In this document: in pieces, positions 4,073-57,813 of the stretch
Layout: the number at the start of each line of letters is the position of its first letter
How positions within the stretch are numbered: position 1 is the stretch's first letter
NCBI GenBank assembly: GCA_040878325.1
Contig: JBBDMM010000006.1
Span: 35,012 to 99,011 of the forward strand
DNA from: Acidimicrobiia bacterium
GTDB taxonomy: Bacteria; Actinomycetota; Acidimicrobiia; Spongiisociales; UBA11373
Length of the DNA stretch: 64,000 bases
Reading direction: 5' to 3'
Notes under the pieces: generated by a model
What the model saw: the letters and a program-made list of their open reading frames with translations, nothing else
Databases searched by the model: none
Told to the model about the DNA's origin: nothing
Program-made: the position numbers and the translations under genes

Positions 4073-4130
4073 TTGAACCTCCTCGAAAAGCTGAGGGTAA
4101 TCGATCGGCCCTCACCCCAACCAGGTTGAG

Positions 4131-8181: not shown

Positions 8182-8927
8182 TTCATCATCTTCGCCCGTT
8201 CGAGGTCTTCCGGCGTGTCTATTTCGATCCAGGGGAGATCGCCCACCTCTACCCCGTACACCCCGTGGGCGCGGGCAAAGTCGCCGATGCCATCCTCGTA
8301 GTAGAGCGAGCCGTCCTTTCTCCATGCCTGCTCGAGGCACGCCACAAACGGGGCGATCGCTTCAGGGGCGAGCCGAGCGATGCCGACGTACTCACCGTGG
8401 GCCTGCTCCGGATGGAGGCCCTTCGAAATGCCGGTGAGCCACCCGGATGAGTCGAAGGTGACTTTCATCTCCTCGTCGGCCAGCGCCTTCTTCGAGTCGA
8501 TCGCCAGCGCTAGGCCGGCGGGCGGGGCGTCTATCAGCCGCCGCATTGCGGTATCGGTGACGAGGGTGTCGCCATTGGCCACCAAGCAGTCCCCACTGAT
8601 CCCACCCAAGCCCAGCCACAGCGAATGGGCGTTGTTGAGGACCGCATGATCGGGGTTGTCGATCAACTCGATCTCGAGCCCGTAGTGCGACTCGAGGCTG
8701 CTACGGCGCCGGCCCACCTCCTCGGACGCGTGCCCGACGACCAAACGGACCCTTGAAACTCCAGACTCGGCGAGCACCCCCAGCACGTGGTCGAGCACCG
8801 TCCGCCCGCCGCCTAGATCGAGAAGGGTCTTGGGGAGGTCGCGGGTGAACGGCAGAAGTCGCCGCCCCTGACCGGCGCAAAGGACTACCGCCTGCGAAAT
8901 CGACTCGATTCGGGGCTCCTCGGTCAC
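8169..8927 (-). CDS. sugar/alcohol-phosphate nucleotidyltransferase (cytidylyltransferase-like)
   Basis: N-terminal AVVLCAGQGRRL (GxGxRL nucleotidyltransferase motif). About 250 aa, typical for GlmU/LicC/IPCT-like NTPases. Confidence 0.75.
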   Translation of the reverse strand: MTEEPRIESISQAVVLCAGQGRRLLPFTRDLPKTLLDLGGGRTVLDHVLGVLAESGVSRVRLVVGHASEEVGRRRSSLESHYGLEIELIDNPDHAVLNNAHSLWLGLGGISGDCLVANGDTLVTDTAMRRLIDAPPAGLALAIDSKKALADEEMKVTFDSSGWLTGISKGLHPEQAHGEYVGIARLAPEAIAPFVACLEQAWRKDGSLYYEDGIGDFARAHGVYGVEVGDLPWIEIDTPEDLERAKMMKWHS

Positions 8928-31592: not shown

Positions 31593-32159
31593 ATGAACAG
31601 CAACGGAATCAAGATCCTCGCTGCCGTGCTGGCCGTCGCCGGTGCCTCGTTCGTGACCGTACGGGCGACGGCCGCGGCGTTCTCGGACCAGACCGACAGC
31701 GCAGCCAACCAATTCGCCGCAGGCACCGTCCAGCTCAGCGACAACGATGCCGGGTCCGCCCTCTTCGACGGATCCTCTCTCTTCGTCCCCGGGGACTCAG
31801 TGGTGGGATGCATCGAGGTGACCTACTCGGGCTCGGTGGATGCCGGGGTCCGACTCTTCGGAGCCACCACCGGCGGCGACGGCCTCGAGGCCTATCTCGA
31901 TGTGACGATTGAGCGAGGCACCGGTGACTGCACCACCTTCGGCACAGCGACCGAGGTCTGGGGCGCGACGGATGGCGATCTCGCCGAATTCCTCGCCGCA
32001 GCCTTCTCATACGCATCCGGCGTCGACAGCTGGGCACCGGTCGGCGGGGGAGCCGACGACACGGTCCCCTACCGGATCACGGTTACCCAGCAAGACGACA
32101 ATGCCGCTCAGGGTCTGTCGTCCATGGTCAGCTTCACCTGGGAAGCCCAGAGCAGCTGA
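31593..32159 (+). CDS. secreted protein with SipW-cognate class signal peptide (TasA/camelysin-like small type)
   Basis: N-terminus KILAAVLAVAGASFVTVRATAAAFSDQTDSAANQFAAGTVQL matches the SipW-cognate signal consensus (...AyFsD...N.FaAGt). Mature part about 150 aa, beta-rich. Confidence 0.7.
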   Translation: MNSNGIKILAAVLAVAGASFVTVRATAAAFSDQTDSAANQFAAGTVQLSDNDAGSALFDGSSLFVPGDSVVGCIEVTYSGSVDAGVRLFGATTGGDGLEAYLDVTIERGTGDCTTFGTATEVWGATDGDLAEFLAAAFSYASGVDSWAPVGGGADDTVPYRITVTQQDDNAAQGLSSMVSFTWEAQSS

Positions 32160-32403
32160 TAAGCATCGGGAGGGGACCCGGCCCCCCCCGGGGCCCCGGG
32201 TCTCTCACCTCGGTCCGACCATGAGCAACCCGTCGATCGCGACACCGCGCCTCGATGCGACCGCCGGGCCGCTCGACCATCTGGCGTACGCCCGCAGCAC
32301 ACCGAGCTCCGCCGATCCGTTCGCCCGTGACGGAGTTCGGGTCGTTGCTGTGGGCAGGAGAGACTCCACCGCCAAACCACCCGACGACGGTCAGACCCTC
32401 GCG

Positions 32404-33990
32404 ATGAAGGTGCGCCGATCACGGGCCCCCTGGCTGTTTTACCTCGGGATGCTGGTGGCGGCATCATTCGTCTACTTCGTGCTCGCCACCGCGTTCGTTT
32501 CCCGCGCCATCCCGCTGCTGGCAGGGTGGGACACCTCTGCGATCATCAGCGGGTCGATGGCCCCCTCGCTGCTGCCCGGCGACATCGTGGCGTTCAAGCG
32601 CTACGACGGCTCCCCCCTCCATCCCGGCACGATCATCTCGTTCGACGACCCCTCCCGGCCCGGAACGCTCACGGCACATCGGATCGTTTCCGCCGCGCCG
32701 GACGGCTCCTTCATCACCAAGGGCGATGCCAACGCCGCGCCGGATTCCAGCCCGGTCCGCGCCGAGATGGTTCGCGGGGTGGCCCGACTCGTAGCGCCCA
32801 ATGGAGCCTTGCCGTTGTATTGGTGGAGGACCCACCAACTGAGCCCCCTGCTCGGGTTCGCCACCACCACGCTCGCCGCAATCTTCGTACTCAATCTGCG
32901 AGACCCGGCAGAACGGCGTCTGCTGCGCCGGCCCGGTCGTCAGGCCCGGTCGCGCCTGGCCCGGGCGGTCATCGTGGTCCCGACGGTCGGTGTGGTGGCC
33001 ACCCTGGCACTCGTTGGAGTGACGCTCGCATCGTTCGGCGACCTGGCGGACAACTCCACCAACGCGTTCGCCGCGGCCTCTTCGTTCGGCCCCGAGCCGC
33101 CCTCGAGCCTCATGGCCACGCCCATGTGTGCGCCGGACACGATCATCTTCTTGGCGTCGGCGAGCAACGGAGGCGACGCGGCGTCGGTGTCACTCGGCCG
33201 GCCAACCGGAGTGGCGGTGGGCGACGTCCTCATCGCTGCGTTCCTGACCCGGAACGTGACCACGGTCAATCAGGCGCCAGCTGGTTGGTCGCTCCTCACG
33301 ACCATCGGTTCGATGCGGGTGTACCACCGGATTGCTGGCGAATCGGAGCCGATTACGTACACGTGGACGCTGGGGTCGCAACAGCGCTGGGCTGGGGGAA
33401 TCGCCGCGTACCGAGGCGCCGCCGCCAACCCGATCGACGCAGTTGCCGCCTCGTCGTCTAGCGGCACGCCGTCACTACTGGCCCCCTCGGTGACGACCTC
33501 GGTCGATCAAACGATGCTCATCGCCCTCTTCGGCAGCCACCACCGCGGGGCGATCACCGAACCCAACGGGATGACGGAGCGGTGGGACCTTTCAGACGGG
33601 GGCCAGGGCGGGCCTACCCAGGGAGTTCGTTCCGAGGCCGCCGACGAGGCGTTCGGATCGGCGGGCGCCACCGGTGGCCGGATCGCCACCGCCGGGGGCG
33701 CAGTACTCGGGTATGGCGTCCTCGTGGCGATCGCACCTGATTCGTTGGTCGCCGCGGTCGTGCTCGACTGGCTGCCCACGCCCACGGGGACGGCGGATGG
33801 GTACGCCCTCGAGCGCTGGGTCGGCGGATTCTTCGACGCAGGATGGACGGTGAACGGTGCCACCGCGACCAGCTTCTCGGACGAGACGGCGGTCGAAGGC
33901 CTGGCCTACACCTACCGGATCCGCACCATCGAGGGCACCGAGGAGTCGGCGCCGATCGAGATCGCCATCGTCCCTTCGTGCGGTGACTGA
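32404..33990 (+). CDS. SipW-type (archaeal/ER-type, Ser-His) signal peptidase I fused to a C-terminal secreted domain that carries its own SipW-cognate-type signal and an FN3-like end (alternative start 32221)
   Basis: SPase boxes SGSMAPSLLPGDIV, TAHRIV, ITKGDAN. After the second TM comes n-region RRLLRRPGRQARSRLAR, h-region AVIVVPTVGVVATLALVGVTLA, then SFGDLADNSTNAFAAAS. Single continuous ORF. Confidence 0.7.
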   Translation: MKVRRSRAPWLFYLGMLVAASFVYFVLATAFVSRAIPLLAGWDTSAIISGSMAPSLLPGDIVAFKRYDGSPLHPGTIISFDDPSRPGTLTAHRIVSAAPDGSFITKGDANAAPDSSPVRAEMVRGVARLVAPNGALPLYWWRTHQLSPLLGFATTTLAAIFVLNLRDPAERRLLRRPGRQARSRLARAVIVVPTVGVVATLALVGVTLASFGDLADNSTNAFAAASSFGPEPPSSLMATPMCAPDTIIFLASASNGGDAASVSLGRPTGVAVGDVLIAAFLTRNVTTVNQAPAGWSLLTTIGSMRVYHRIAGESEPITYTWTLGSQQRWAGGIAAYRGAAANPIDAVAASSSSGTPSLLAPSVTTSVDQTMLIALFGSHHRGAITEPNGMTERWDLSDGGQGGPTQGVRSEAADEAFGSAGATGGRIATAGGAVLGYGVLVAIAPDSLVAAVVLDWLPTPTGTADGYALERWVGGFFDAGWTVNGATATSFSDETAVEGLAYTYRIRTIEGTEESAPIEIAIVPSCGD

Positions 33991-36177: not shown

Positions 36178-38805
36178 TCAGGCTGTTGCGGAGGCTCCGT
36201 CGGTTGCGAGGGCGAAGGCGACGGCCTCGTCGGGGGTCATAGCCCGCCCGGCGCGGTAGGCCTCCGCCAGGTCACCGGTGAACGCTTCCAGCGTCTCCTT
36301 CTCCACGCCCTCGATGCGGGCGGAGTCGATGGATACGAGGTCGACACCGCTCCGCTCCCCCAGCGCCCACGCCGCCCCACCCAGCCGAGCCCCCCGGAGC
36401 TCGTCGCCCTCGAGAACCGACAGCGCGGCAAACGCCAACAAGAAGAAGACCGCCGCCGAGATCTCGCCGGTGCCGTAGAGGATCTCGATACCCCGGGTGA
36501 AGTGGAGTCGCGACTCGGCGTAGTCGCCGAGGCGCCGGTAAATCTCACCCAACTCGAACCGGCCCCAACCCTCTCCAAAGACGTTGCCTACCGCCCGGTA
36601 CAAGTCGATGCACTTCTCCAGGTGGGGGACACCGTCCCTCGGGTCATTCGAGCCGATGAGTGCCATGTTGCCCTTACCCCAATGGACATCGGCGAGACCC
36701 CCTTCGTCGCCCAGCCTGGTGTAGATCGCCATGGCCTCCTCGAGGAACTCATCCCCGCGATCGAAGTCCTGGCGGAAGAACGCCTCCATCAGCCCGGCGT
36801 TGTACAGCGCATTGGCGATCTCCCGGTCGTCACCCATCTCCCGCTGCAGTCGCAGCGCCTCGTCGTAGGCGGCGGTGCACGCGTCGCGGTCGCCTTGCCA
36901 CCAGGTGATCCCCCCCAGGGCCTCGATCGCCTTGGCGCGTCGCCGCGGGTCGCCCCCCGCCATCGCCAATGCCTCGTCGACTCGTCGCCGCGCCTCGTAG
37001 AGGTGCCCCCGGATCTGCCAGTAGCGCCACATCGACCAGGCGAAACGCAGCGCACTATCGGCGTCGCCCGCCGCCACGCAACGGGCCATCGCCGCGCGGA
37101 GGTTGTCGTGGTCGGCGTCGAGCGCCTCGGCCCAAGTCTTCCGGTCGCGCCGGGTGAGCTCCGGGGCAGCGGTCTCGATCAGGTCGAGATATCCGAAAGT
37201 GTGTCGCCGGCCGATCTCCTCTGCCTCGCCGGACTCAGCGAGGCGCTCGGTGGCGTACTCCCGGATCACCTGGAGCATTCGAAACCTCCCTCTGGCCCGG
37301 TCCGCCACAAGAAGACTGCTGTCCACCAGAGTCGATAGGCCGTCGAACAACTCGAGTCCGAGGTCAGGTGCACACACCTTCTCGATCTCCTCCAGCCGGG
37401 CGCCGCCCACGCACACGGACAAGCGGGCGAACAGCCGACGGCATGGGTCGGAGAGGGCTTCTTCGCTCCAGGCGATGGCATTCCACATCGTCTGATGCCG
37501 TTCAGGAGCATCGCGAGGCCCTCCGGTCAGCGACCGGGCGTCGAGCCGTTCGACCAGCGCCTCCACCGAGAGCAGTTTCAGCTTCGAAACGACGAGTTCG
37601 ATCGCCAGCGGCAGGCCGTCGAGACGACGCACCAACTCCACCACCGCGCCGGCGTTTCCGGCCGTGAGGGCGAACCCGGGCTGTACTGCCTGAGCCCTCT
37701 CCACGAACAGATGCACCGATTCGTTCTTCATCAGCGCGTCCACGTCCGAGTCGGGCGACGCCACTTCGAGTGGGGCAATGGCGAGCTCCTGTTCCCCCCG
37801 AACGCGCAGTGGGATGCGCGACGAAACCAGGAATCGTGAGTGGGTCGACGCCGCCGACAGGTCGCCGATCAGCCCCGCACCCTCAACGAGCTGCTCGAAG
37901 TTGTCCAGCACCAGCAGCATTTCCTTGTCCGACATGAATCGGACGAGTTGATCCCGTGGGGGAACCGCGGCGGAGGCAGGGGCCACGCCGAGGGTCGACA
38001 GGATGGTGGGGGCAATCAGGTCTGGGTCGGTCACGGGCGCCAGAGGCACGAAGAAGACCCCGTCCTTGAAACGGTCGGCGGCCTCGGCGGCCACCTGAAT
38101 GGAGAGCCTGGTCTTGCCCGTTCCACCCGGGCCGAGCAAGGTGAGGATGCGGCTCGACTCGAGCGTCCCGAGGGCGGCCGCCACATCGTCCTCTCGCCCA
38201 ACGAAGCTGGTGATCTGCACCGGCAGGTTGTTGGGGATCGCCTCAAGGGTGCGGGGCGGGGGAAACTCGTCGGAAACGCCGGGGATCACCAGTTGGAAAA
38301 GTGCCTCGCGCTCCAGGAGATCCTTGAGGCGATGCTTGCCGAGGTCTCGCAGGCTGGTGTCCTTTGGCAGCAGCCGCTCGCTCAGCGCCGCCGAGGTCTC
38401 CGAGAGGATCACCTGTCCGCCGTGTGCCGCCGCGGCGATCCGGGCCGCCCGATGCACGTCGAGCCCGACATAATCCGACCCCCCCAGGGCACCGATACCG
38501 GTGTGGACCCCGATGCGGATACGGACGGTGCAGCCGCCGGGCCACTCGTGATCCTGAATCGCCCGCTGCGACTCGGCCGCGACCGCGACAGCATCCGCCG
38601 CCGACGCGAACACCACGAAGAACGAGTCCCCCTCGGTACGCACCTCCACTCCCCCAGCGCGATGGACTGCCGTCCGTACCAGCCGGTCGTGGTCGGCGAG
38701 GAGTTCGGGCCAGACCTCACCGAGTTCTTGAACAAGCCTGGTGGACCCCTCCATGTCGGAGAAGAAGAAGGTGACGGTTCCGGTGGGCAGGTCGGCGCGT
38801 GTCAT
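36178..38805 (-). CDS. class III adenylate/guanylate cyclase domain - AAA/STAND ATPase - TPR repeat protein
   Basis: N-terminal CHD (VTFFFSDMEGST ... EGDSFFVVF), P-loop GPGGTGKTRL, C-terminal TPR-like repeats. Confidence 0.8.
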   Translation of the reverse strand: MTRADLPTGTVTFFFSDMEGSTRLVQELGEVWPELLADHDRLVRTAVHRAGGVEVRTEGDSFFVVFASAADAVAVAAESQRAIQDHEWPGGCTVRIRIGVHTGIGALGGSDYVGLDVHRAARIAAAAHGGQVILSETSAALSERLLPKDTSLRDLGKHRLKDLLEREALFQLVIPGVSDEFPPPRTLEAIPNNLPVQITSFVGREDDVAAALGTLESSRILTLLGPGGTGKTRLSIQVAAEAADRFKDGVFFVPLAPVTDPDLIAPTILSTLGVAPASAAVPPRDQLVRFMSDKEMLLVLDNFEQLVEGAGLIGDLSAASTHSRFLVSSRIPLRVRGEQELAIAPLEVASPDSDVDALMKNESVHLFVERAQAVQPGFALTAGNAGAVVELVRRLDGLPLAIELVVSKLKLLSVEALVERLDARSLTGGPRDAPERHQTMWNAIAWSEEALSDPCRRLFARLSVCVGGARLEEIEKVCAPDLGLELFDGLSTLVDSSLLVADRARGRFRMLQVIREYATERLAESGEAEEIGRRHTFGYLDLIETAAPELTRRDRKTWAEALDADHDNLRAAMARCVAAGDADSALRFAWSMWRYWQIRGHLYEARRRVDEALAMAGGDPRRRAKAIEALGGITWWQGDRDACTAAYDEALRLQREMGDDREIANALYNAGLMEAFFRQDFDRGDEFLEEAMAIYTRLGDEGGLADVHWGKGNMALIGSNDPRDGVPHLEKCIDLYRAVGNVFGEGWGRFELGEIYRRLGDYAESRLHFTRGIEILYGTGEISAAVFFLLAFAALSVLEGDELRGARLGGAAWALGERSGVDLVSIDSARIEGVEKETLEAFTGDLAEAYRAGRAMTPDEAVAFALATDGASATA

Positions 38806-49461: not shown

Positions 49462-50667
49462 ATGAAGAGCACCGTTCTTCTCCTGACACTCGCCCTGGTC
49501 GCCGCCTCATGTGGCGGTACGACCGCCGACACCACCACTACCACCGAGGCGACAACCACCACCGCCATCACGGTGCCGGCGACCACCACCTCCACCGGAC
49601 CGACGACCACGACCACCACTCTGCCTCCGTCGCCGGTGCTGGCGACCGAGGGTGACGACAACGAGATCGTCGCCGCCTTCCAGTTCCTCCTCAACTGCGG
49701 GGGTTATGGGGAGCTGACGGTCGACGGCGAGTTCGGTGCGGGGACCACCACCGCGGTCACGGAGGCTCAGGAGGCGCTGGGATTCGACCCGACCGGCGAA
49801 CCGACGGAGAACTTCTTCATCGCCCTCAACCAGTTGTGTCCCCAGACCCGTGCCGTCGAATTCGGCGAGGACGAGATCGCGGTGCGAGTGTTCGGCCACA
49901 CCTCGGCGCTCGACCCGGAGAACTTCTCCATCCCGCTGATCTTCGGCAGCACGCTGATGGTGACACTGGTCTCCGGTGACGGCGCGATCGCCACGGTGTG
50001 GGATGCGCAAGGGACGCCCCTCGAGTCGGAGGACGGAACCACCTTCCTGATCGAGGAAACCGGTGACTACCGAATCGAGGTGAGCACCGCCGACGACCCG
50101 ACCGTGTTCACCATCGAAGTCGAGGTCACTTCGATCGCCGAGGCCGGCGAGTGGATCATCACCACCGACGGGATCTCCCACGATGACACCGAGTTCCTCC
50201 TCGGCACCGCCGCCGGGCCGATGATCACCAAGATCTTCGAATTCCTCGGCCACGGAGTGCGAAGCGACTTCGACGAGTTCGACACCGGATGGGACGCCGC
50301 CGGACAGGAAGGTTTCCGGGGGATCTTCATCGAAGGCCTCGCCTTCCTCTTCACCGGCCCCAACGCCGAGAACCCGGGGCGCCCGGAAGTCTTCGCCCGG
50401 GTGAGGTATGTCGGCCCCTCCTTCGACGCCGATGGCGAGCCCAGGCCGGCCGGGTTCGTCCAGACCCTGTCCGGAATCACGGTGGGCCACACGCTCGAAG
50501 ACCTGATCGACACCTACGGGTCGTCAGTGCGGTCCGGCAGCAACAGCGAAGAGCACTACTACCGCTACGGCGCCGCCGACGGTTCAGAAGTCTGCTTCTA
50601 CTTCGGCGAAGACGAGCCGGATGATGACGACCAGATCCTCGAGATCTCTACGGAGTGCCGGGGGTAG
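49462..50667 (+). CDS. secreted lipoprotein with Thr-rich linker and peptidoglycan-binding (PG_binding_1-like) domain
   Basis: MKSTVLLLTLALVAASCGG. TTTTTEATTTTA linker. EIVAAFQFLLNCGGYGELTVDGEFGAGTTTAVTEAQ resembles a PGBD. Confidence 0.6.
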   Translation: MKSTVLLLTLALVAASCGGTTADTTTTTEATTTTAITVPATTTSTGPTTTTTTLPPSPVLATEGDDNEIVAAFQFLLNCGGYGELTVDGEFGAGTTTAVTEAQEALGFDPTGEPTENFFIALNQLCPQTRAVEFGEDEIAVRVFGHTSALDPENFSIPLIFGSTLMVTLVSGDGAIATVWDAQGTPLESEDGTTFLIEETGDYRIEVSTADDPTVFTIEVEVTSIAEAGEWIITTDGISHDDTEFLLGTAAGPMITKIFEFLGHGVRSDFDEFDTGWDAAGQEGFRGIFIEGLAFLFTGPNAENPGRPEVFARVRYVGPSFDADGEPRPAGFVQTLSGITVGHTLEDLIDTYGSSVRSGSNSEEHYYRYGAADGSEVCFYFGEDEPDDDDQILEISTECRG

Positions 50668-50788
50668 GCGCGCGGAGCTAGCTGGTGGCGCCCGACCCAC
50701 CTTCGGAGCGCCACCGACCACGACCCGCGGCACGGAATTCTGTCGGTCGTGATGGGTAGTCTCTCCAGCGGTTCAACCGGGGGGAGAC

Positions 50789-53257
50789 TTGAGCGAAGCA
50801 TTCTGGGAGCAGGGCGATACGGTCGATCGTGTCCCCGTCCACATCAGCATGCGGATCATCGAGCTCTTTTCAGAGGGCTTGTACGCCAGTCCGAACAAGG
50901 CACTTGAGGAGTTGGTCGCTAACGCGTTCGATGCGGGGGCGACCAGGACTCACGTTGCACTCTCTGTGGACCTCTCGGCTGACGATGCGCTTATCGTCGT
51001 CATCGACAACGGCGTAGGCATGGACGCGGCCGGTCTGAAGAAGCACTGGATCATCGGTGAGAGCGACAAGCGCACGACAGCGGATTCTCGCAAACGAGCT
51101 CCGATCGGGAAATTCGGAATCGGGAAGCTCGCAACATTCGTACTTGCTAGTCGCCTGACACATATCTCAAAGGCTGGCGGGAAGTACTGGTCAACCAGCA
51201 TGGACTTCTCGACCCTCCCTACCGGGAAAGGGGCTGAGACCGACCAAGTCGACCTCGACCTCCGAGAGCTTACGCTTACCGAGGCGAAGGCTGCCGTCTC
51301 CCAAATTCTCGAGACCGCCGGGCTAGGCATGAAGAGCGTTCCCCTTTTCGGTCGTGGCGCGGACGAGTCGTGGACTGTCGCCGTTATGTCCGACCTGAAA
51401 CCGATGGCGACGGAGATCACCATCGGGCGCCTCGGCTGGGTGCTAAGAACTGGAATGCCGCTCCGCGATGATTTCGTGTTGGTGCTCAATGGCACCGAGT
51501 TGACACCAGCAAAGGGTTCGAAGCATCGGATCGCGCGCCTCAGGCTCGGGGATGACGTCAAGTCAGTCCCGAAACCGGCAACCGACGACTACGAAGTCTC
51601 GGTTGATAAGAAACGCGGAGCGGACGACGGGCGATTCGGCCTCGTGGGTGCTCAACTCGGGCGAGTTACCGGCTACCTCGAGGTTTACGAGAATCCCATT
51701 GATACTGGGAAGGCGTGGGAACGATCGAATGGCTTCTTTGTGTATGTGCGAGGACGGCTGATCAACGGCGCAGATCCGGGATTCGGACTCGACCGAAACC
51801 TGCTTCGACACGGTACGTTTTCTCGGATGCGAGCCGTCGTCCACATGGACCGCCTTGACGACGAATTGCGCTCCTCGCGCGAGTCTGTTCGCGAGGGACC
51901 CACCCTTTTCGAAGCCCGCCACTTCCTCCACGGACTCTTCAACCTCGCCCGCAACACCTTGACCGGTTTTGAGGAAGAGCATGACCCGAGTAGACGTGTC
52001 GGCGACCGATTCGCCGCGGGACCTGCAAGTCTGACAGTCGCGCCGATACTTCGACTAGCAGCCGCAGCGATCCGAGGAGATGCAGTGCCGCTTCTCCTTG
52101 AAGTCGCGCTGCCAGCTGGGGTCTCCGCAGATGACTTCATCACCGACTTGAACAGGGCGGCCGAGGAGGCCGGTGGAATCCTCCGGGGGACTTCGCTAAC
52201 GGACCTTGGCCCCAGATCGGGTATCGCTCGCCTCAACCTCAGCGAGGGATTACTTCAGATCAATCTGGCTCACCCTTTTGTTGCCAGCTTCGTAGATGAC
52301 TTCTCGGATCCAAAGAGGAGTCTCCCACTAGAGCTACTGGCGATGGCCGAAGTCGTGCTCGAAGCGCAACTTTTCGACCAAGGGATGTCGACCGCCGACG
52401 CCCGTGAAGTACTCCGACAAAGGGATGACACCCTACGTGTTCTTGCGAGAGAACACGCTGAGCCGAATGCGATCACGATTGCCCAAGAGCTCTTGGATAG
52501 CGTATCGGACAAGGCAGCGCTTGAGACGGCTGTAGTCGCCTGCTTCGACTCGCTCGGATTCGAGGCTGTCCATGTGGGTGGGAAGGAAAAGCCCGACGGG
52601 TACGCCGATGCCCACCTCGGGGTTGAGAGCGATCTCAGCAAGGCGGCCTATAGGGTCACACTCGAGGCGAAGAGCAAGGAGCGGCCCGGGGCGAAAGCCG
52701 CTTCGAAGGCAGTCGGGGTGTCAGCCATTGAACGCCACATGACCGACTTCGGGGCAAAACACTGTGTTGTCGTCGCTCCCGACTTCGAGAAGGGCGTATT
52801 GAGCAAGGAGATCACTGCGGTTCGCGAGAAGACCGGTAGGTCCATAACCCTGGTGCGAGCGATCGACCTAGCCCGCCTCGTGCGCTTGGCGCCTCGCAAG
52901 GGGATCAACCTCTCGGACCTCGAGGAGCTCTTCGAGTGTTCAACGTCTGATGAAGTGTCGGAGTTCGTAGACAGCATCGAGAAGCTGCCGGACCGCACGA
53001 ATACCTTCAGGACGATCCTCGAGGCAATCTGGCAGGAGCAACAGGAACAGCCGGACGCCGCGGTTCACTACTCGGCGCTTCGAGTAGCACTGCGGAAGTC
53101 GGCGAACATCAAACTGAGCGACGATGAAGTGAAGTCCGCGTGCATGGCGCTCTCGGCCATGGCGCCGACACACGTCTTCGCCCGTACCGATCGCGTGGAA
53201 CTAAGCATCCGACCCGATAAGGTTCTTGCCGCGATCGCCGCGTACATAGCAGCATGA
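50789..53257 (+). CDS. MORC-like GHKL ATPase fused to C-terminal Mrr-type PD-(D/E)xK restriction-endonuclease domain (TTG start)
   Basis: N-box ELVANAFDAGAT, G1 IDNGVGMD, G2 GKFGIGKLA, then a transducer-like middle domain. C-terminal KPDGYADAHLG ... YRVTLEAKSKE gives PD-x(n)-ExK. Locus GC is clearly lower than the rest of the window. Confidence 0.75.
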   Translation: MSEAFWEQGDTVDRVPVHISMRIIELFSEGLYASPNKALEELVANAFDAGATRTHVALSVDLSADDALIVVIDNGVGMDAAGLKKHWIIGESDKRTTADSRKRAPIGKFGIGKLATFVLASRLTHISKAGGKYWSTSMDFSTLPTGKGAETDQVDLDLRELTLTEAKAAVSQILETAGLGMKSVPLFGRGADESWTVAVMSDLKPMATEITIGRLGWVLRTGMPLRDDFVLVLNGTELTPAKGSKHRIARLRLGDDVKSVPKPATDDYEVSVDKKRGADDGRFGLVGAQLGRVTGYLEVYENPIDTGKAWERSNGFFVYVRGRLINGADPGFGLDRNLLRHGTFSRMRAVVHMDRLDDELRSSRESVREGPTLFEARHFLHGLFNLARNTLTGFEEEHDPSRRVGDRFAAGPASLTVAPILRLAAAAIRGDAVPLLLEVALPAGVSADDFITDLNRAAEEAGGILRGTSLTDLGPRSGIARLNLSEGLLQINLAHPFVASFVDDFSDPKRSLPLELLAMAEVVLEAQLFDQGMSTADAREVLRQRDDTLRVLAREHAEPNAITIAQELLDSVSDKAALETAVVACFDSLGFEAVHVGGKEKPDGYADAHLGVESDLSKAAYRVTLEAKSKERPGAKAASKAVGVSAIERHMTDFGAKHCVVVAPDFEKGVLSKEITAVREKTGRSITLVRAIDLARLVRLAPRKGINLSDLEELFECSTSDEVSEFVDSIEKLPDRTNTFRTILEAIWQEQQEQPDAAVHYSALRVALRKSANIKLSDDEVKSACMALSAMAPTHVFARTDRVELSIRPDKVLAAIAAYIAA

Positions 53258-54468
53258 CCTATCTGCACCCGTTTCCGGCGCGGATGGCCCCCGAATTGGC
53301 AGCGGCAGCCATCGACCACCTTGAAGGCCCCAGGCAGCGGGTCCTAGACCCGATGTGTGGCTCTGGAACGACACTGCTTGCAGCGCGCAGGGCTGGCCAC
53401 CATGCGATCGGTCTGGACCTTGATCCACACGCCGTGATGCTGTCGAAGGGCCTCCTGACGAGCTACGAATCGAACCTCCTCCGCGACGCCAGCGAAGAGG
53501 TCCTCCAACTCGCAAGAAGCATCAAAGGCCGGATTACGCAAGGGACCGCGTATCCCGAAAGCTCGGATTTCGCCACGCGCGAGTTTCTCCGGTATTGGTT
53601 CGACCCGGCGACGCGTATCCAACTCACAGCACTGATACGGGTAATCGACGAGCAGCCTCGCGACGAGCTTTGGAGGCTCCTACGAATCGCATTCTCGCGA
53701 ATGATCATCGTTAAAGAGAATGGCGTGTCACTGGCGATGGACGTCGCTCATAGTCGCCCGCATCGAACTTACGACAAGTCCCCAACTCACCCTTTTGACC
53801 TGTGGCCAGTCTCGATCGCGACGGTAGCGCGAGCCATCGAGGTATCCCGAGTCCCGGACGATCACCCGTTGGCGTCTGTCATGTTGGGCGACGCGCGGGC
53901 GACCGGCCTCCCCGACTCGTCGATCGATGCAATCGTCACCTCACCCCCATACCTCAACGGAATCGACTACATCCGGGCTTCCAAGTTTGCTCTCGTGTGG
54001 TTTGGGCACAACGTGGGTGAACTGCGCGAGTTGCGAGCGTCGTTGGTGGGAGCAGAGAGAGGACTGGCAGCCAGCGAACTCAGCGGCCTGGTCGCTGAGT
54101 TTGACGACGCCCATTGGTATCGCGAGCTCCCAAGTCGGCAACGGGGTCTGGTGCACCGGTACCTGGCGGATATGAGAAGCGTACTTGCAGAGTCGGCGAG
54201 GGTATTGAAGCTTGGGGCGACAGCCGTGCTCGTTGTTGGAGACTCAAGGCACCGGGGAGTCACAATCCCCAACAGCGAGATCCTTCAGCGTCTGGCGAGT
54301 CTTGCTGGCTTCAAGATCATCAAGAAAGTAGCGAGGCCCCTTCCGACGAAACACCGATACCTCCCACCGCCGCAGTCAACGGCGACGTCCGACCTGGATC
54401 GGCGACTGTCTTCCGAGTGGGTGCTCACTTTCAAGAAGACGAGTGGGTGCTCACCTTCAAGAAGATAG
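53254..54468 (+). CDS. DNA methyltransferase (amino-MTase, N6-adenine or N4-cytosine), translationally coupled (ATGA) to the GHKL-nuclease gene
   Basis: Motif X/I HPFPARMAPELAAAAI...VLDPMCGSGTT near the N-terminus and motif IV IVTSPPY about 200 aa downstream. Confidence 0.85.
   Translation: MTYLHPFPARMAPELAAAAIDHLEGPRQRVLDPMCGSGTTLLAARRAGHHAIGLDLDPHAVMLSKGLLTSYESNLLRDASEEVLQLARSIKGRITQGTAYPESSDFATREFLRYWFDPATRIQLTALIRVIDEQPRDELWRLLRIAFSRMIIVKENGVSLAMDVAHSRPHRTYDKSPTHPFDLWPVSIATVARAIEVSRVPDDHPLASVMLGDARATGLPDSSIDAIVTSPPYLNGIDYIRASKFALVWFGHNVGELRELRASLVGAERGLAASELSGLVAEFDDAHWYRELPSRQRGLVHRYLADMRSVLAESARVLKLGATAVLVVGDSRHRGVTIPNSEILQRLASLAGFKIIKKVARPLPTKHRYLPPPQSTATSDLDRRLSSEWVLTFKKTSGCSPSRR
54415..54466 (+). 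repeat. 26-bp imperfect tandem duplication (2 copies, 24/26 identical) spanning the MTase stop codon
   Basis: gagtgggtgctcactttcaagaagac | gagtgggtgctcaccttcaagaagat. Removing one copy puts the MTase in frame with the downstream kinase ORF. Confidence 0.9.
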
Positions 54469-54665
54469 GACGAGCCTTCAATCAAACAGCCCCGCTCTCC
54501 GACGCAGCGCAGGGGCTAGCCGATTCACGCTCTGGGCCTGCCGCACCATCCCGCACCATCAGGGTTGAAGTCACCACGTCGAAGACGCCACGAGGATGGC
54601 CACCTCGATTCGCGGTCGCGAAGTCTAGTGTCCCTCTCTATGCGACCGTTACCTGGGAGGCCAAG

Positions 54666-55454
54666 GTGGGTGCAGAGTTCGGTCCCCTGATTGCCGGCGG
54701 ACCCGATCGGGTCGTCCGGCGAGGCAAATACGTTCTTAGGAAAACGGGTCCCTGGACGCCGACGGTCCATGCCCTGTTGGCGCACTTCGAGCGCTTGGGA
54801 GTGCGGGGCGCGCCGCGCGCGCGAGGCCTTACGGCTGGTGGGTGTGAACGGGTCAGCTTCGTCGAAGGCACCACGATTGTCTGGCCCGAGAAGTGGCCGA
54901 GTGGGATGCAAAGCGACGAGTATCTGCGAGATGTGGCCCAGCTTGTCCGACTGCTGCACGACGCCAGCGAAACTTTCCGTCCCCCGAGCGATGCCATCTG
55001 GCAGGAGCAGCCGCTGACTCTGTCGCACGGTGACATTATCTGTCACAATGACCTCGGGCCTTGGAACACCGTTACGCGCGGGAACAGGCCAGTTGCCATA
55101 ATCGACTGGGACATGGCAGCTCCCGGCACGAGGGATTGGGACGTCGCCTTAGCTCTGTGGCACTGGGTGCCGCTATACGACGATAACGAAATACTCGAGT
55201 GGGGATGGGCGACAGTGCCTGATAGGCGGCACCGAATTGAGGTCTTCTCGGCTGCCTATGGGATCGAGACTCCTCGTGACCAACTTCTGAAGACCATAAG
55301 GAAGAGGCAAGTCGCGACTCTTCGCACTATTAGGTGGGCCCAGTCGAATCCGAACCTCCCGGGAGCAGACGTCTGGGTGGACTGCGTTCCCCCTCACGTG
55401 GTGCGTCGCCAGCTCAGGTGGCTCGACTCTAACGCTGAGACACTCCTCCCATAG
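54666..55454 (+). CDS. APH/ChoK-fold phosphotransferase (aminoglycoside-phosphotransferase-like kinase); GTG start tentative, frame open upstream to the repeat
   Basis: Catalytic loop ICHNDLGPWN (HxDxxxxN) and IDWDMAAPGTRDWD (D-W-D metal-binding segment). Confidence 0.7.
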   Translation: MGAEFGPLIAGGPDRVVRRGKYVLRKTGPWTPTVHALLAHFERLGVRGAPRARGLTAGGCERVSFVEGTTIVWPEKWPSGMQSDEYLRDVAQLVRLLHDASETFRPPSDAIWQEQPLTLSHGDIICHNDLGPWNTVTRGNRPVAIIDWDMAAPGTRDWDVALALWHWVPLYDDNEILEWGWATVPDRRHRIEVFSAAYGIETPRDQLLKTIRKRQVATLRTIRWAQSNPNLPGADVWVDCVPPHVVRRQLRWLDSNAETLLP

Positions 55455-55669
55455 TGCAAGGGCATGCTGCCGCCATCCTGTGGCGATGCGGTCCTGCAAG
55501 TTCTGACCAACGCTGAACGGCCGGCCCTTTCTCCCCGAATCCCATCAACGGGCACCGCTAACTTGGACGCACGAGCTACGAACTGATCCGCGCACTTACG
55601 CCGAGAACACTACCTCCGCGTGTCCTGATAGGACAGGAAGCTGGGAGCAAGAGGCCACCAAAAGGGGTT

Positions 55670-57061
55670 TCAATGTAGCCGCTCGCTGACCACTTTCAAC
55701 TGGGTAAACTCCTCCAACCCAAGTTGTCCATACTCAACGCCCATACCCGACGATTTCACGCCGCCGAACGGGACGTCATGAGAAAGTTCGCCATGAGTGT
55801 TTACCCACACTGTGCCGACCTTTAGGCGCGACGCGACCTTCTGTGCTAAGGCGCCGTTGCCCGTCCAAACCGATGCCCCGAGGCCATACGAGGTGGCGTT
55901 CGCCCTTGATACGGCCTCATCGAGGTCAACAAACTCCATCACCGGAAGTGCGGGTCCGAACTGCTCAGTGACCTCTAGCGCTGTGTTTGTGGATGGCTCA
56001 AAGACAATAGTCGGGCGGTAGAAGAACCCGGGCGCGTCGATACGATATCCACCCGCCAGCACTTGACCCCCGGCACTGCGAGCGGTCGCCACTAGCGCGT
56101 CGACCCTGAGGACTTGTCCCTCGATCGTCAGTGGACCCATTTGAGTCCGTGCATCAAGGCCATTGCCTACGATGGTCGCGTCGGCCCGCATCGCCAGACG
56201 GTCGGCCAAACTGCGAGCAATTGATTTGTGGGCATACACTCGCTTCACAGCCGCGCAGAATTGCCCGGCATTGACAAAGGCTGCTGCGAACAGCGCCTCG
56301 GCGACACCGTCGATGTCGACATCTGGAAAGACGATCGCAGCATCATTACCTCCAAGCTCAAGGATCGCCTTCTTCAGATCCCGAGCTGCCGAGACCGCTG
56401 CCGACCGCCCAGCACTTACAGATCCAGTGAGCGACACCATGTCACAGAACCCATGGCTCACAAGACGCTCGCCGAGGGTGTCGCCACCGCTCAGTACGTT
56501 CAGGACACCTGCGGGTAGAAGAGGTGCCAAGGTCTCGCCCATCAATAGCGGCGATAAGGGAGCATGAGGAGATGGCTTTAGCACGACAGTATTGCCTGCG
56601 AGCAAGGCAGGGGCGATTTTGACTACAGCCAGAATGATTGGGTAGTTCCACGGTGTAATCGCACCTACGACCCCCAAGGGCACTCGAAGCATCCGCACGT
56701 ATGAGTCGGGCGTCTTCCGAGCAATTGCAGCTTCCAATTCGAGTCCAGCAATCCAGCCAAACCACTGCGCTGCCAACGTCACCTCGTCCATGGCCTCTCT
56801 CAGTGGCTTACCATTCTCCCTTGTCAGGACTGTGGCAACTTCATCAGCTCGAGCAGCTAGTCCTTCTCCGAGTTCGACTAGTACTGAGCGTCGCTCGTCG
56901 ATTGGCTGCGCAGCCCAGGCGGGCTGTGATGACCGGGCAGAGCGCAGGGCTTCGTCAAGCACTGCCTCGCTAGCCAGCGGCGCTTCTGCGAACGTCTCCC
57001 CGGTTGCCGGGTCGACCACGGGCAGACCCGTACCGCCAACGGACTTGCCGCCGACCGTCAT
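55670..57061 (-). CDS. aldehyde dehydrogenase family protein (low-GC)
   Basis: ALDH signatures ELGGNDA, catalytic FVNAGQFCAAVKRVY, EPTIV... About 463 aa. Confidence 0.85.
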   Translation of the reverse strand: MTVGGKSVGGTGLPVVDPATGETFAEAPLASEAVLDEALRSARSSQPAWAAQPIDERRSVLVELGEGLAARADEVATVLTRENGKPLREAMDEVTLAAQWFGWIAGLELEAAIARKTPDSYVRMLRVPLGVVGAITPWNYPIILAVVKIAPALLAGNTVVLKPSPHAPLSPLLMGETLAPLLPAGVLNVLSGGDTLGERLVSHGFCDMVSLTGSVSAGRSAAVSAARDLKKAILELGGNDAAIVFPDVDIDGVAEALFAAAFVNAGQFCAAVKRVYAHKSIARSLADRLAMRADATIVGNGLDARTQMGPLTIEGQVLRVDALVATARSAGGQVLAGGYRIDAPGFFYRPTIVFEPSTNTALEVTEQFGPALPVMEFVDLDEAVSRANATSYGLGASVWTGNGALAQKVASRLKVGTVWVNTHGELSHDVPFGGVKSSGMGVEYGQLGLEEFTQLKVVSERLH

Positions 57062-57813
57062 ACCTAGAACTAGGTCGAAGCCCACGCCTATGCCCTCCGC
57101 CGCTGCGAGTGTCCCTGAGATTCTCTTCGAACGATGCTACGCGATCCGGCCACCTGGTTGATCGCTGACCGACGGATGGCCGACCTCGAGCGAGCGCACG
57201 CAGGTGAGTGGTTGGGTACCTTGAATGAGGTGGCAATCAGTCTTGTGATTGCGCCCAAGACCGCGTCCATGCGCCCCCGGCGCGTCGGGCGGGAGAACGA
57301 CAGGGAATGCGGCGGGGAGCGGCGTGCCCTGACGTTGGCCCGGAGGCCATGGCCAATACTGGTAGCGTTTTCGGTGATGCGAGGAAGCTCCACGCAAATC
57401 ACCAAACAGGGGACGGACGCCGAGTCGGACTTGGCACGCCGTCGGGATGTGCAGCGAGGCACCAACTTCTGCCGGGCGGTGAAAGCCGCTCTCTGGGTGA
57501 GGCAGCTAGACGAAACAATGCTGCGTGGATCGCGGAAGGAGACCTTCCCGAGGGATGCAACCTGGAGTGCACGGCGGGCCACGGTTGCAGAATCCTCAAC
57601 CCCGACATCCGAAAAGAGTCTGTTCGGAGTAGTCGGTTGTACAAGTTGGCTTTCCCGGGCACCAATCTCGGCGGTGCCGACAGAGATGGCGGCACGTACA
57701 CGTCACCCGCCTTCCGTAACGGCGTCGTTCGATGCGATGCCGTTCTGGACCGAGAGCCGCCCGGGGCTGAGGGTCCGAGCGGAGTGGGCGCTCGATGCCG
57801 GATTGGCCGCCCC

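What the first reader, a model, noticed from the sequence alone, without database searches (positions are those of the whole stretch)
31593..33990. TasA-like fibre protein next to a SipW-type signal peptidase fused to its own cognate-signal substrate domain
Gene 1 has a clear SipW-cognate class signal (…AAAFSDQTDSAANQFAAGT…). Gene 2 has all boxes of a Ser-His, Sec11/SipW-type signal peptidase (SGSMAP, GDIV, AHRIV, TKGDAN) and the usual C-terminal TM. The same ORF then continues into a basic n-region, a long hydrophobic h-region and a second copy of the cognate motif (SFGDLADNSTNAFAAAS). A roughly 300-aa extracytoplasmic domain follows and ends in an FN3-like beta-sandwich signature. One polypeptide that combines the dedicated peptidase with a substrate implies cis self-processing. 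This differs from the separate tapA-sipW-tasA arrangement. A GC hairpin lies between the two genes.
Basis: partly seen in the sequence, partly recalled or inferred. Interest (0 to 1): 0.75.

Follow-up and report, generated by a model that had tools for sequence, protein, structure and literature searches.

The report
Signal peptidase fused to fibre-initiator-like substrate
An Acidimicrobiia genome has a two-gene cassette: a TasA-like biofilm-fibre subunit, then a dedicated SipW-type signal peptidase joined in one polypeptide to a second, internal copy of the subunit's signal-and-donor-strand segment and a binding-type domain; this enzyme-plus-substrate layout recurs in many bacteria, and I found no description of it in the papers I could search.

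Summary
Gene 1 (31593-32159) is a short TasA/camelysin-family protein. Gene 2 (32221 or 32404 to 33990) is one uninterrupted ORF. It reads: ER/archaeal-type Ser-His signal peptidase (TIGR02228 above cut-off), second TM helix, Arg-rich cytoplasmic loop, third hydrophobic helix, a 17-residue copy of the TasA-type cleavage-site/donor-strand motif, an unclassified beta-sandwich domain, then an FN3 domain.

TIGR04088 does not recognise the internal motif. A profile built from Acidimicrobiia TasA-like N-termini does: 12-18 bits, 0 of 2000 shuffles, and the only other hit in the six-frame window.

The fusion is not an artefact and not unique. Of 163 related peptidases, 82 have tails of at least 150 aa, and 52 of those carry the motif (0 of 82 reversed controls). 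Passengers vary (LamG, CBM96/DNRLRE, LTD, RCC1). In two proteins the passenger is a complete TasA-like domain. A TasA-like gene sits directly upstream in 40 of 47 long-tail genome loci.

Best reading: the peptidase cuts gene 1's product and its own passenger. The released passenger has a donor-strand N-terminus but no acceptor fold, so it would act like TapA/TafC as fibre initiator or tip adhesin. Cleavage, cis versus trans, and fibre formation are all untested. This is a new variant of the TasA-SipW system.

The parts
31593..32159 (+). Gene 1: TasA/camelysin-family fibre subunit, 188 aa. SD-like AAAGGGGA lies upstream.
   Evidence: PF12389 scores 23.6 bits against GA 22.5. There are 802 homologues of ~190 aa, mostly PF12389, some named 'TasA family protein'. 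A profile of 29 homologues gives weak PDB hits to TasA 5of1/8aur (E 0.24-0.29), aligned at the homologous N- and C-terminal motifs.
31593..31676 (+). Gene 1 signal peptide, aa 1-28. Predicted cut is A28|A29, with T at P3, A at P1 and F30 at P2'.
   Evidence: TIGR04088 scores 19.1 bits on the first 55 aa. Column statistics of 90 homologues: P1 Ala 84/90, P2' Phe 90/90. The cut site is placed by analogy with TasA A27|A28 (PMC10151520) and is an inference.
31677..31727 (+). Gene 1 predicted mature N-terminus AFSDQTDSAANQFAAGT, the putative donor strand.
   Evidence: It aligns to TasA residues 28-41, which form the intercalated strand beta0 in fibres (PMC10151520). Lineage profile scores 69.2 bits.
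32172..32205 (+). GC-rich stem-loop after the gene 1 stop codon. Possible attenuator or mRNA 3' stabiliser.
   Evidence: The 71-nt stretch 32155-32225 that contains it folds at -35.3 kcal/mol, z -1.08 against its own shuffles. No T tail. z -2.74 against local windows. An analogous hairpin follows the TasA-like stop in L008 (z -3.41) and in L003, L004, L012, L020, L023 and L048.
32221..33990 (+). Gene 2: fusion protein, 589 aa from ATG 32221 or 528 aa from ATG 32404. The stop codon is included.
   Evidence: The ORF is continuous. It is identical to P0001. Full-length relatives are P0002 (89% identity), P0004 (52%) and L008 (53%), all from independent assemblies.
32431..32499 (+). TM1, aa 10-32 in MKVRR numbering, N-in.
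   Evidence: Kyte-Doolittle 19-residue windows score 1.5 or more.
32521..32823 (+). ER/archaeal-type S26 signal peptidase domain. Ser box SGSMAP 32548-32565, His box AHRIV 32674-32688, TKGDAN 32716-32733.
   Evidence: TIGR02228 scores 59.8 bits against 51.85. Invariant S, M, P, H, R, GDAN and DS columns in 18 relatives.
32836..32898 (+). TM2, aa 145-165, returning the chain to the cytoplasm.
   Evidence: Hydropathy. It lies at the same position as the TM2 in 60+ long relatives.
32899..32964 (+). Arg-rich cytoplasmic loop (8 Arg in 22 aa), acting as the n-region of the internal signal.
   Evidence: Read directly from the sequence. No ATG, GTG or TTG lies in this loop, so the passenger cannot be translated as a separate preprotein with its own n-region.
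32965..33030 (+). TM3, the h-region of the internal signal peptide (aa 188-209). Predicted cut is A209|S210, with T at P3, A at P1 and F at P2'.
   Evidence: Hydropathy up to 2.49. It aligns to lineage profile positions 9-21. P3 is small in 52/52 and P1 is Ala in 50/52 motif-positive fusions (partly circular, because those segments were chosen by profile score).
33031..33081 (+). Internal TasA-type donor-strand-like motif SFGDLADNSTNAFAAAS.
   Evidence: It scores 17.9 bits as a fragment and 12.2-12.5 bits as a domain in context. 0 of 2000 shuffles reach the fragment score. It is the second best hit in the six-frame window, with the next at 3.1 bits. TIGR04088 gives no hit. It is disordered in the model.
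33097..33744 (+). Domain X: an unclassified all-beta domain of ~210 aa.
33745..33987 (+). C-terminal FN3 domain.

Best explanation
The cassette is a minimal TasA-type fibre module.

Gene 1 encodes the major subunit. Gene 2 encodes the dedicated SipW-type signal peptidase. After the second membrane helix and an Arg-rich cytoplasmic loop, the chain re-enters the membrane through an internal signal peptide (TM3) and exports a passenger.

The peptidase domain cuts gene 1's product at A28|A29. It also cuts the fusion itself at A209|S210, either within the molecule or between neighbouring molecules.

The released passenger (319 aa) then starts with the same 15-17-residue segment that TasA-family subunits insert as a donor strand. 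It has no TasA-like acceptor fold, only an unclassified beta-sandwich and an FN3 domain. It can therefore only cap one end of a fibre. There it would donate its strand to the first subunit and so prime or tip the fibre, like TapA in B. subtilis or TafC in haloarchaea, while presenting a binding-type domain.

The fusion would couple initiator release in space and in number to the enzyme that matures the subunits.

Shown: the domain architecture, its topology, the motif homology, and the recurrence of the fusion and of the gene pair. Inferred: cleavage, the donor-strand role, and fibre formation.
For: - Peptidase family threshold is met and the catalytic boxes are invariant.
- The topology obeys the positive-inside rule.
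- The internal motif matches the lineage TasA signal-plus-donor profile in register, including small P3, Ala P1 and Phe P2'.
- Similarity stops exactly at P15', where true subunits continue into the jelly-roll with an invariant G-T-V.
- The motif abuts the hydrophobic helix directly, so it could only act as a strand after cleavage (inference).
- No start codon allows separate translation of the passenger.
- 52 of 82 long-tailed relatives carry the motif, against 0 of 82 reversed tails.
- In P0176 and P0178 the passenger is a complete TasA-like domain (E ~1e-33, profile positions 14-191 of 191). So members of the family that SipW-type peptidases are known to process can occupy this position.
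- A TasA-like gene lies directly upstream in 4 of 4 inspected metagenome loci and in 40 of 47 long-tail genome loci.
- The passenger fold is not TasA-like.
- Passengers elsewhere are ligand-binding modules: LamG, CBM96/DNRLRE, LTD, RCC1.
- Literature: TasA 28-41 is the donor strand and TapA 44-57 is donated to TasA (PMC10151520). The TafC tip supplies the first strand (PMC11821415).
Against: - There is no experimental evidence of cleavage or of fibres.
- TIGR04088 does not recognise the internal motif here or in 8 of the 9 other fusions tested.
- In full-length context the motif's whole-sequence score is erased by composition-bias correction; only the domain score (12.5 bits, i-E 1e-3) survives.
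- The h-region is 22 residues long, closer to a stable TM helix than to a typical signal peptide.
- Motifs of neighbouring genes are no more alike than motifs from different loci (0.358 against 0.350, p 0.37). There is thus no co-evolution signal for a specific strand-groove pairing.
- 30 of 82 long tails score below 8 bits.
- The P1/P3 statistics come from segments chosen by the same profile, so they are partly circular.
Confidence: 0.5

Rival explanations
1. Uncleaved anchor. TM3 is a permanent third membrane helix, and the passenger stays attached to the peptidase on the cell surface. It would serve as a membrane anchor or docking platform for the fibre base or for substrates, or as a surface adhesin. 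The motif would be a relic of the gene that was fused.
For: - The h-region is 22 residues, of TM length.
- TafD of haloarchaea is a signal peptidase with four TM segments and a second extracellular domain of unknown function that is not reported to be released (PMC11821415).
- TapA co-localises with the membrane (PMC10151520).
- SipW-like peptidases tolerate other permanent C-terminal fusions, for example GGDEF-EAL in L025.
Against: - A relic would not keep P3 small, P1 Ala, P2' Phe/Tyr and the N/T/N/F pattern across 50%-identity cluster representatives with unrelated passengers.
- The motif starts immediately after the helix, which leaves no room for it to act as a strand while tethered.
- A complete TasA-like subunit as passenger (P0176, P0178) makes little sense if it is never released.
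Confidence: 0.22
2. Independent exoprotein. The passenger is cleaved and released, but it has nothing to do with the fibre. The motif is only the recognition determinant of SipW-type peptidases, and the fusion merely guarantees co-expression of a secreted binding protein with the one peptidase able to process a P2'-Phe site.
For: - P2' Phe makes TasA a poor substrate for the housekeeping peptidase LepB and dependent on SipW (PMC10269814, abstract).
- Passenger domains are very diverse.
- There is no locus-specific covariation of motifs.
Against: - Conservation extends 15 residues past the cut (T at P6', N at P8', N at P11', F/W/L at P13', A at P15'). That is far beyond what peptidase recognition usually needs, and it coincides with the TasA donor strand (PMC10151520).
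- A TasA-like gene is almost always directly upstream.
Confidence: 0.2
3. Artefact. Two separate genes, a peptidase and a downstream secreted protein, were merged by a sequencing or assembly frameshift or by a lost stop codon in this MAG.
For: The source is a metagenome-assembled genome. High-GC DNA gives long spurious open frames.
Against: - The same continuous fusion occurs in independent assemblies from Logan, ENA, JGI and NCBI (P0002, P0004, P0034, L008) and in cultured isolates: Agromyces sp. MMS24-JH15 (complete genome) and Actinokineospora diospyrosa DSM 44255.
- No start codon precedes TM3.
Confidence: 0.02

Closest known systems
B. subtilis tapA-sipW-tasA operon (TasA fibres, TapA initiator, SipW peptidase)
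   Same: - A dedicated ER/archaeal-type Ser-His signal peptidase sits next to a TasA/camelysin-family subunit.
- The subunit has a signal with Phe at P2', followed by a conserved segment that is the donor strand.
- An accessory protein carries the same N-terminal segment but a different, non-acceptor fold.
   Different: - Here the accessory is not a separate gene. It is fused to the C-terminus of the peptidase behind an internal signal peptide.
- The gene order is subunit then peptidase-accessory.
- The passenger (domain X + FN3) has no sequence or fold relation to TapA.
- The peptidase fails the Bacillus SipW equivalog model (42 bits against 190).
- The subunit is shorter: 188 aa as encoded, about 160 aa after the predicted signal cut, against TasA's 261-residue precursor, which matures at A28 (residue numbering in PMC10151520).
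Haloarchaeal Tat-fimbriae (tafA-G): TafD signal peptidase, TafC tip, TafF anchor (PMC11821415, PMC12337348)
   Same: - Donor-strand fibres with a dedicated S26 peptidase.
- TafD has extra TM segments and a second extracellular domain.
- A tip protein is proposed to provide the first donor strand and carries a variable outer domain.
- Some bacterial peptidases are reported fused to another system component (DUF5305/TafG).
   Different: - The second domain of TafD has unknown function and is not described as carrying a substrate-type signal or donor motif.
- Tafi subunits use Tat signals.
- No DUF5305 is detected here.
B. cereus sipW-calY1-calY2 and C. perfringens sipW-bsaA loci
   Same: SipW-type peptidase clustered with one or more camelysin/TasA-like subunits. 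One paralogue is proposed to act as initiator (PMC10151520).
   Different: All components there are separate polypeptides. The initiator candidates are themselves TasA-like, whereas here the passenger is a different fold. The exceptions are the relatives P0176 and P0178, where a TasA-like domain is the fused passenger.
SipW-like peptidase fused to GGDEF-EAL
   Same: The same peptidase family, the same TasA-like neighbours, and the same fusion point after TM2.
   Different: That tail is multi-TM plus cytoplasmic c-di-GMP domains, with no donor motif in the first 260 residues after the peptidase. It is a regulatory fusion, not an enzyme-substrate fusion.

Membership tests
ER/archaeal-type S26 signal peptidase I (SipW/Sec11 type; TIGR02228) | Profile score at or above the curated cut-off | tested here: met
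   TIGR02228 scores 59.8 bits against 51.85. Nine of ten fusion relatives also pass. Pfam PF10502 scores 20.1 against 22.9, just below.
ER/archaeal-type S26 signal peptidase I (SipW/Sec11 type; TIGR02228) | Ser nucleophile in an SM.P box, and His (not Lys) in an HR box, followed by GDAN...D | tested here: met
   SGSMAP, AHRIV and TKGDANAAPDS are present. S, M, P, H, R, G-D-A-N and D-S are invariant in 18 relatives.
ER/archaeal-type S26 signal peptidase I (SipW/Sec11 type; TIGR02228) | An N-terminal and a C-terminal membrane helix flanking the catalytic domain | tested here: met
   Hydropathy gives TM1 at 10-32 and TM2 at 145-165.
ER/archaeal-type S26 signal peptidase I (SipW/Sec11 type; TIGR02228) | Signal-peptide cleavage activity | not testable with these tools
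   This needs expression and Ser/His mutants.
Bacillus SipW orthologue (NF046067 equivalog) | Equivalog score of 190 bits or more | tested here: not met
   The score is 42 bits. It is SipW-like in type, not an orthologue by NCBI's criterion.
TasA/camelysin family (PF12389) - gene 1 | Pfam gathering threshold | tested here: met
   23.6 bits against 22.5, which is marginal. Most of the 120 listed homologues carry PF12389, and some are named TasA family protein.
TasA/camelysin family (PF12389) - gene 1 | SipW-dependent-type signal (TIGR04088, cut-off 19) | tested here: inconclusive
   16.9 bits on the whole protein and 19.1 bits on the first 55 aa.
TasA/camelysin family (PF12389) - gene 1 | Jelly-roll fold that polymerises by N-terminal donor-strand exchange | not tested
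There are only weak profile hits to TasA 5of1/8aur (E 0.24-0.29), aligned at the homologous motifs.
SipW-cognate signal - internal segment of gene 2 | Recognition by TIGR04088 | tested here: not met
   No hit at E up to 10. Among ten fusion motifs, only the low-GC P0032 reaches 19.0.
SipW-cognate signal - internal segment of gene 2 | In-register match to the signal and post-cleavage segment of the neighbouring subunit family | tested here: met
   The lineage profile comes from 90 sequences and excludes the window's own. Fragment score 17.9 bits; domain score 12.2-12.5 bits; 0 of 2000 shuffles reach the fragment score; next window hit 3.1 bits.
TapA/TafC-type fibre initiator or tip (functional class) | N-terminus after the signal cut resembles the major subunit's donor strand | tested here: met
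   SFGDLADNSTNAFAA against AFSDQTDSAANQFAA. The column pattern is shared across 52 fusions.
TapA/TafC-type fibre initiator or tip (functional class) | The body is a stable non-TasA fold that cannot accept a strand | tested here: inconclusive
TapA/TafC-type fibre initiator or tip (functional class) | Sequence homology to TapA or TafC | tested here: not met
   No Pfam or NCBIfam hit for the passenger. A TafC model hit occurs only in relative P0019, over its LamG region and far below cut-off (34.9 against 410).
TapA/TafC-type fibre initiator or tip (functional class) | Nucleates or caps fibres | not testable with these tools
   This needs biochemistry or imaging.
Fibronectin type III domain - C-terminus of gene 2 | FN3 fold | tested here: met
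TafD/DUF5305-type extended peptidase | DUF5305 or a TafD-like second domain | tested here: not met
   No such Pfam hit in gene 2.

The most novel reading that the evidence does not exclude
SipW-type peptidases fused to a passenger behind an internal, substrate-type signal peptide form a widespread class of self-priming fibre machines. Each enzyme molecule would cut itself once, in cis, to release exactly one donor-strand initiator or tip adhesin. It would then mature the major subunits that polymerise onto that initiator. Two genes would then suffice to build an adhesive TasA-type fibre, and the signal peptide would remain as the enzyme's own third membrane helix. I know of no described bacterial signal peptidase that processes an internal signal peptide within its own polypeptide.
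Probability: 0.25. Interest if true: 0.8.

Novelty: new variant of a known kind. Interest (0 to 1): 0.62.

Why it matters
TasA-type donor-strand fibres are a major biofilm scaffold in Firmicutes and archaea. How fibres are initiated and tipped outside Bacillus is largely unknown, because TapA is not conserved.

This locus and its many relatives suggest that in Actinomycetota and other phyla the initiator or tip is supplied as a passenger fused to the dedicated peptidase. That gives a concrete, testable two-gene model for fibre priming. It would also be an unusual case of a type I signal peptidase acting on an internal signal peptide of its own chain.

It explains a large set of 350-1100-aa proteins currently annotated only as 'signal peptidase I'. 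It also points to cultured organisms in which the model can be tested: Agromyces sp. MMS24-JH15 and Actinokineospora diospyrosa DSM 44255.

The modular passengers (LamG, CBM96, LTD, FN3, domain X) suggest a general way of putting different binding heads on the same fibre.

Tried and rejected
- TIGR04088 on the internal motif of gene 2 and of nine other fusions. It hit only the low-GC P0032, so the model appears too Firmicute-biased to decide.
- Whole-protein hmmsearch of P0001 with the lineage profile. The full-sequence score is cancelled by bias correction, so the domain score, a no-null2 run and shuffles were used instead.
- Locus-specific covariation between the subunit motif and the fused motif across 8 pairs. 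No signal: 0.358 against 0.350, p 0.37.
- Sequence search of gene 1 and of the passenger against the PDB. Nothing for gene 1 alone; only FN3con for the passenger.
It was repeated with 5 closer sequences.
- Internal translation start for a separate passenger. No ATG, GTG or TTG lies in the loop.
- Frameshift artefact. Rejected on recurrence of the fusion.
- Rho-independent terminator scan. No hit, because the hairpin lacks a T tail.
- Pfam on P0176 and P0178 did not call the TasA-like passenger. A lineage profile did, at E ~1e-33.
- Literature searches for a SipW-substrate fusion found nothing.
Full report
**What is in the window**

Two genes on the + strand lie between unrelated genes on the - strand. 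The neighbours are a GT4 glycosyltransferase, a luciferase-like oxidoreductase and a DUF3303 protein upstream, and a TenA/PqqC-like protein, an aldehyde dehydrogenase and a cyclase-NB-ARC-TPR protein downstream.

Gene 1 (31593-32159, 188 aa) passes the Pfam gathering score for Peptidase_M73, the TasA/camelysin family: 23.6 bits against 22.5. It has 802 detectable homologues of about 190 aa, mostly tagged PF12389, and a few are named 'TasA family protein [Acidimicrobiia bacterium]'.

Gene 2 is identical to an NCBI protein called only 'signal peptidase I' from an Acidimicrobiia MAG (P0001, 589 aa, start 32221). A second plausible start is ATG 32404 (528 aa). All residue numbers below count from that Met.

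**Anatomy of gene 2**

The peptidase part passes TIGR02228, the archaeal/ER-type signal peptidase I model, at 59.8 bits against 51.85. It fails the Bacillus SipW equivalog at 42 against 190, and is just below the Pfam S26 threshold. The Ser box SGSMAP, His box AHRIV and TKGDAN...DS are present, and the catalytic columns are invariant in 18 relatives.

Hydropathy gives TM1 at 10-32, the catalytic domain outside the membrane, and TM2 at 145-165. A 22-residue loop with eight Arg follows, then a third hydrophobic stretch at 188-209, and directly after it SFGDLADNSTNAFAAAS. This topology obeys the positive-inside rule and puts everything after residue 209 outside the cell.

The ~210-residue domain before it ('domain X') was modelled alone at pLDDT 94.4. 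It has no convincing solved relative:
- Foldseek best E is 3e-3.
- TasA is not among the hits.

Domain X has no Pfam or NCBIfam match, but it recurs in many secreted multidomain proteins.

**Is the second motif real?**

It also misses eight of the nine other fusion motifs I tried. It barely sees gene 1 itself: 16.9 bits whole, 19.1 bits on the N-terminal fragment, against a cut-off of 19.

I therefore built a profile from the signal-plus-N-terminus segments of 90 distinct gene 1 homologues, leaving out the window's own. The results were:
- The gene 2 fragment scores 17.9 bits, aligned in register from the h-region through the cut site to P15'.
- In the full protein the domain score is 12.5 bits (i-E 1e-3). 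The whole-sequence score is cancelled by composition-bias correction.
- None of 2000 shuffles of the residues after the h-region reaches the observed score; the maximum is 14.6.
- Across all 953 six-frame ORFs of the window, the profile finds gene 1 (64.8 bits), this segment (12.2 bits) and nothing else above 3.1 bits.

By alignment with TasA, the cuts would be A28|A29 in gene 1 and A209|S210 in gene 2. Both have Thr at P3, Ala at P1 and Phe at P2'.

**The fusion is real and common**

The same continuous ORF is found in independent assemblies: P0002 at 89% identity, P0004 at 52%, and L008 at 53% over the full length.

I searched 1.84 billion cluster representatives with residues 1-240. This gave 9210 hits at E 0.001 or better. 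Among the best 150, about half extend 150 aa or more beyond the peptidase, nearly always with a TM2, basic loop and TM3 arrangement.

Pooling both searches, 163 proteins have the peptidase domain and 82 of them have tails of at least 150 aa. Of those 82 tails, 52 contain a segment scoring 8 bits or more against the subunit profile, and 47 score 10 bits or more. No reversed tail reaches 5 bits.

Column statistics in those 52 segments mirror the subunits:
- P3 is Ser/Thr/Ala/Gly in 52.
- P1 is Ala in 50.
- P2' is Phe or Tyr in 46.
- P6' is Thr in 40, P8' is Asn in 41, and P11' is Asn in 42.
- P13' is Phe/Trp/Leu in 47, and P15' is Ala in 40.

The resemblance ends there. True subunits continue with an invariant Gly-Thr-Val into the fold, whereas passengers diverge. 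These statistics are partly circular, because the segments were chosen by profile score.

Passengers differ widely: domain X plus FN3 here, and elsewhere LamG, CBM96/DNRLRE, LTD, RCC1 and Ig-like modules. In P0176 and P0178 the passenger is a complete TasA-like domain (E ~1e-33, profile positions 14-191 of 191).

**Gene neighbourhood**

In every metagenome locus I opened, a ~190-210-aa Peptidase_M73 gene lies immediately upstream of the fusion gene. These were L001, L003 and L004, the last from a low-GC bacterium.

Among 80 loci from GTDB species genomes, 47 peptidase ORFs have long tails. Forty of these have a TasA-like ORF directly upstream, and 28 also have one downstream.

Not all long tails are substrate-like. 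A large Acidimicrobiales group carries ~820-900-aa tails with further TM helices and, in the one I checked (L025), cytoplasmic GGDEF and EAL domains.

Cultured organisms with the donor-motif type include Agromyces sp. MMS24-JH15 (complete genome, two copies) and Actinokineospora diospyrosa DSM 44255 (four LamG domains).

**How it most likely works**

In B. subtilis, the residues right after the SipW cut in TasA (28-41) become the strand inserted into the next subunit. TapA residues 44-57, its mature N-terminus, are donated to TasA to start a fibre. TapA has a stable fold that cannot accept a strand, so it sits at one end (PMC10151520). Haloarchaeal Tafi are modelled the same way, with TafC at the tip (PMC11821415).

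The gene 2 passenger has exactly these properties. It carries a subunit-like strand segment at its predicted new N-terminus, followed by a Pro-rich linker and non-TasA domains.

The motif abuts the hydrophobic helix, so it could act as a strand only after cleavage. No ATG, GTG or TTG precedes TM3 in the loop, so the passenger cannot be made separately with its own n-region.

I therefore think the peptidase cuts both gene 1's product and its own chain, and that the released passenger primes or tips the fibre and presents a binding-type head. Whether the cut is intramolecular is open.

Three rivals remain:
- An uncleaved anchor. TM3 is 22 residues long, and TafD keeps a second outer domain.
- An unrelated exoprotein that merely needs a peptidase tolerant of Phe at P2' (PMC10269814).
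- An assembly artefact, which the recurrence excludes.

Two points count against my reading. There is no locus-specific covariation of the two motifs (0.358 against 0.350 identity, p 0.37). And 30 of 82 long tails lack a detectable motif.

**The hairpin**

The stem-loop at 32172-32205 is real; the 71-nt stretch 32155-32225 that contains it folds at -35.3 kcal/mol. It is not exceptional against shuffles of its own GC-rich sequence (z -1.08), and it has no T tail. It is stronger than random windows of the same region (z -2.74).

The closest relative, L008, has a different perfect hairpin in the same place after the subunit stop (z -3.41). So do several more distant loci.

A role in lowering read-through, so that much subunit and little peptidase-initiator is made, is plausible but inferred.

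**Comparison and novelty**

The system works like tapA-sipW-tasA and like Tafi, but it is not a member of the TapA or TafC families. There is no sequence or fold relation. The peptidase is SipW-type, not a SipW orthologue.

The literature I could search describes the following:
- SipW operons with separate components.
- TafD with an extra domain of unknown function.
- Peptidase-DUF5305 fusions.

I found no description of a SipW-type peptidase fused to a passenger behind a substrate-type signal. From my own knowledge, B. subtilis SipW has been called bifunctional through its C-terminus (Terra et al. 2012). The search was run to find an identifier for that paper and did not return it. That case is a short tail, not a passenger.

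I rate this a new variant of a known kind. The architecture and its spread are robust. The mechanism is a well-motivated hypothesis.

Noticed in passing
L025:3845-6916 (uncultured Acidimicrobiales MAG). Similar tail lengths of ~820-900 aa occur in about 28 other loci among L010-L080.: The SipW-like signal peptidase in L025 is fused, after further TM helices, to cytoplasmic GGDEF and EAL domains (Pfam 143.5 and 196.7 bits). TasA-like genes flank it on both sides. This would be a direct physical link between c-di-GMP signalling and maturation of fibre subunits. Only L025 was checked by Pfam; for the other loci only tail length and flanking genes are known.
   Followed up: partly
P0176 (locus L007:1785-2912) and P0178: In these two proteins the passenger fused to the peptidase is a complete TasA-like subunit (lineage profile E ~1e-33), so enzyme and major-type substrate are one polypeptide. 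In L007 a LamG protein follows, whose N-terminus also has a donor-like motif (ALYATTTNGVNTITSAASF).
   Followed up: partly
window 33097-33744; also P0011-P0031 and P0033: Domain X is a confidently modelled ~210-aa beta domain with no Pfam or NCBIfam match and no convincing PDB fold match. It is conserved (GDVLIA, APAGW, SEP..Y.W, GGIAAY.G, PIDA, APS.TT, GMTERWD). It is repeated or C-terminal in many secreted proteins that carry cadherin-like, Ig, FN3 or subtilase parts. It looks like an undescribed domain family.
   Followed up: partly
L001:1281-3710: A GGDEF-EAL protein (809 aa) is encoded on the opposite strand close to the TasA-like and fusion gene pair of P0007. This again associates c-di-GMP with these modules.
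   Followed up: no
window 36178-38805 (-): An 875-aa protein combines an adenylate/guanylate cyclase catalytic domain, an NB-ARC/AAA ATPase and TPR repeats, a STAND-type signalling architecture.
   Followed up: no
window 50001-58000: GC content drops to 0.60-0.62, against 0.65-0.71 in the rest of the window. This may be a horizontally acquired segment.
   Followed up: no
L018 (Agromyces sp. MMS24-JH15, NZ_CP171358.1): 3290-5053 and 6944-8188: A complete genome of a cultured actinomycete carries two peptidase fusions within 5 kb. Each has a donor-like motif and a small C-terminal domain (one reached through a Pro-Thr linker, with a weak CBM2-like hit), and TasA-like ORFs lie around them. It is a convenient experimental system.
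   Followed up: partly
L040:3203-7504: One stop-free frame contains a TasA-like domain, the peptidase, a long tail and a second TasA-like domain. This may only be in-frame adjacency in high-GC DNA rather than a triple fusion. It was not resolved.
   Followed up: no
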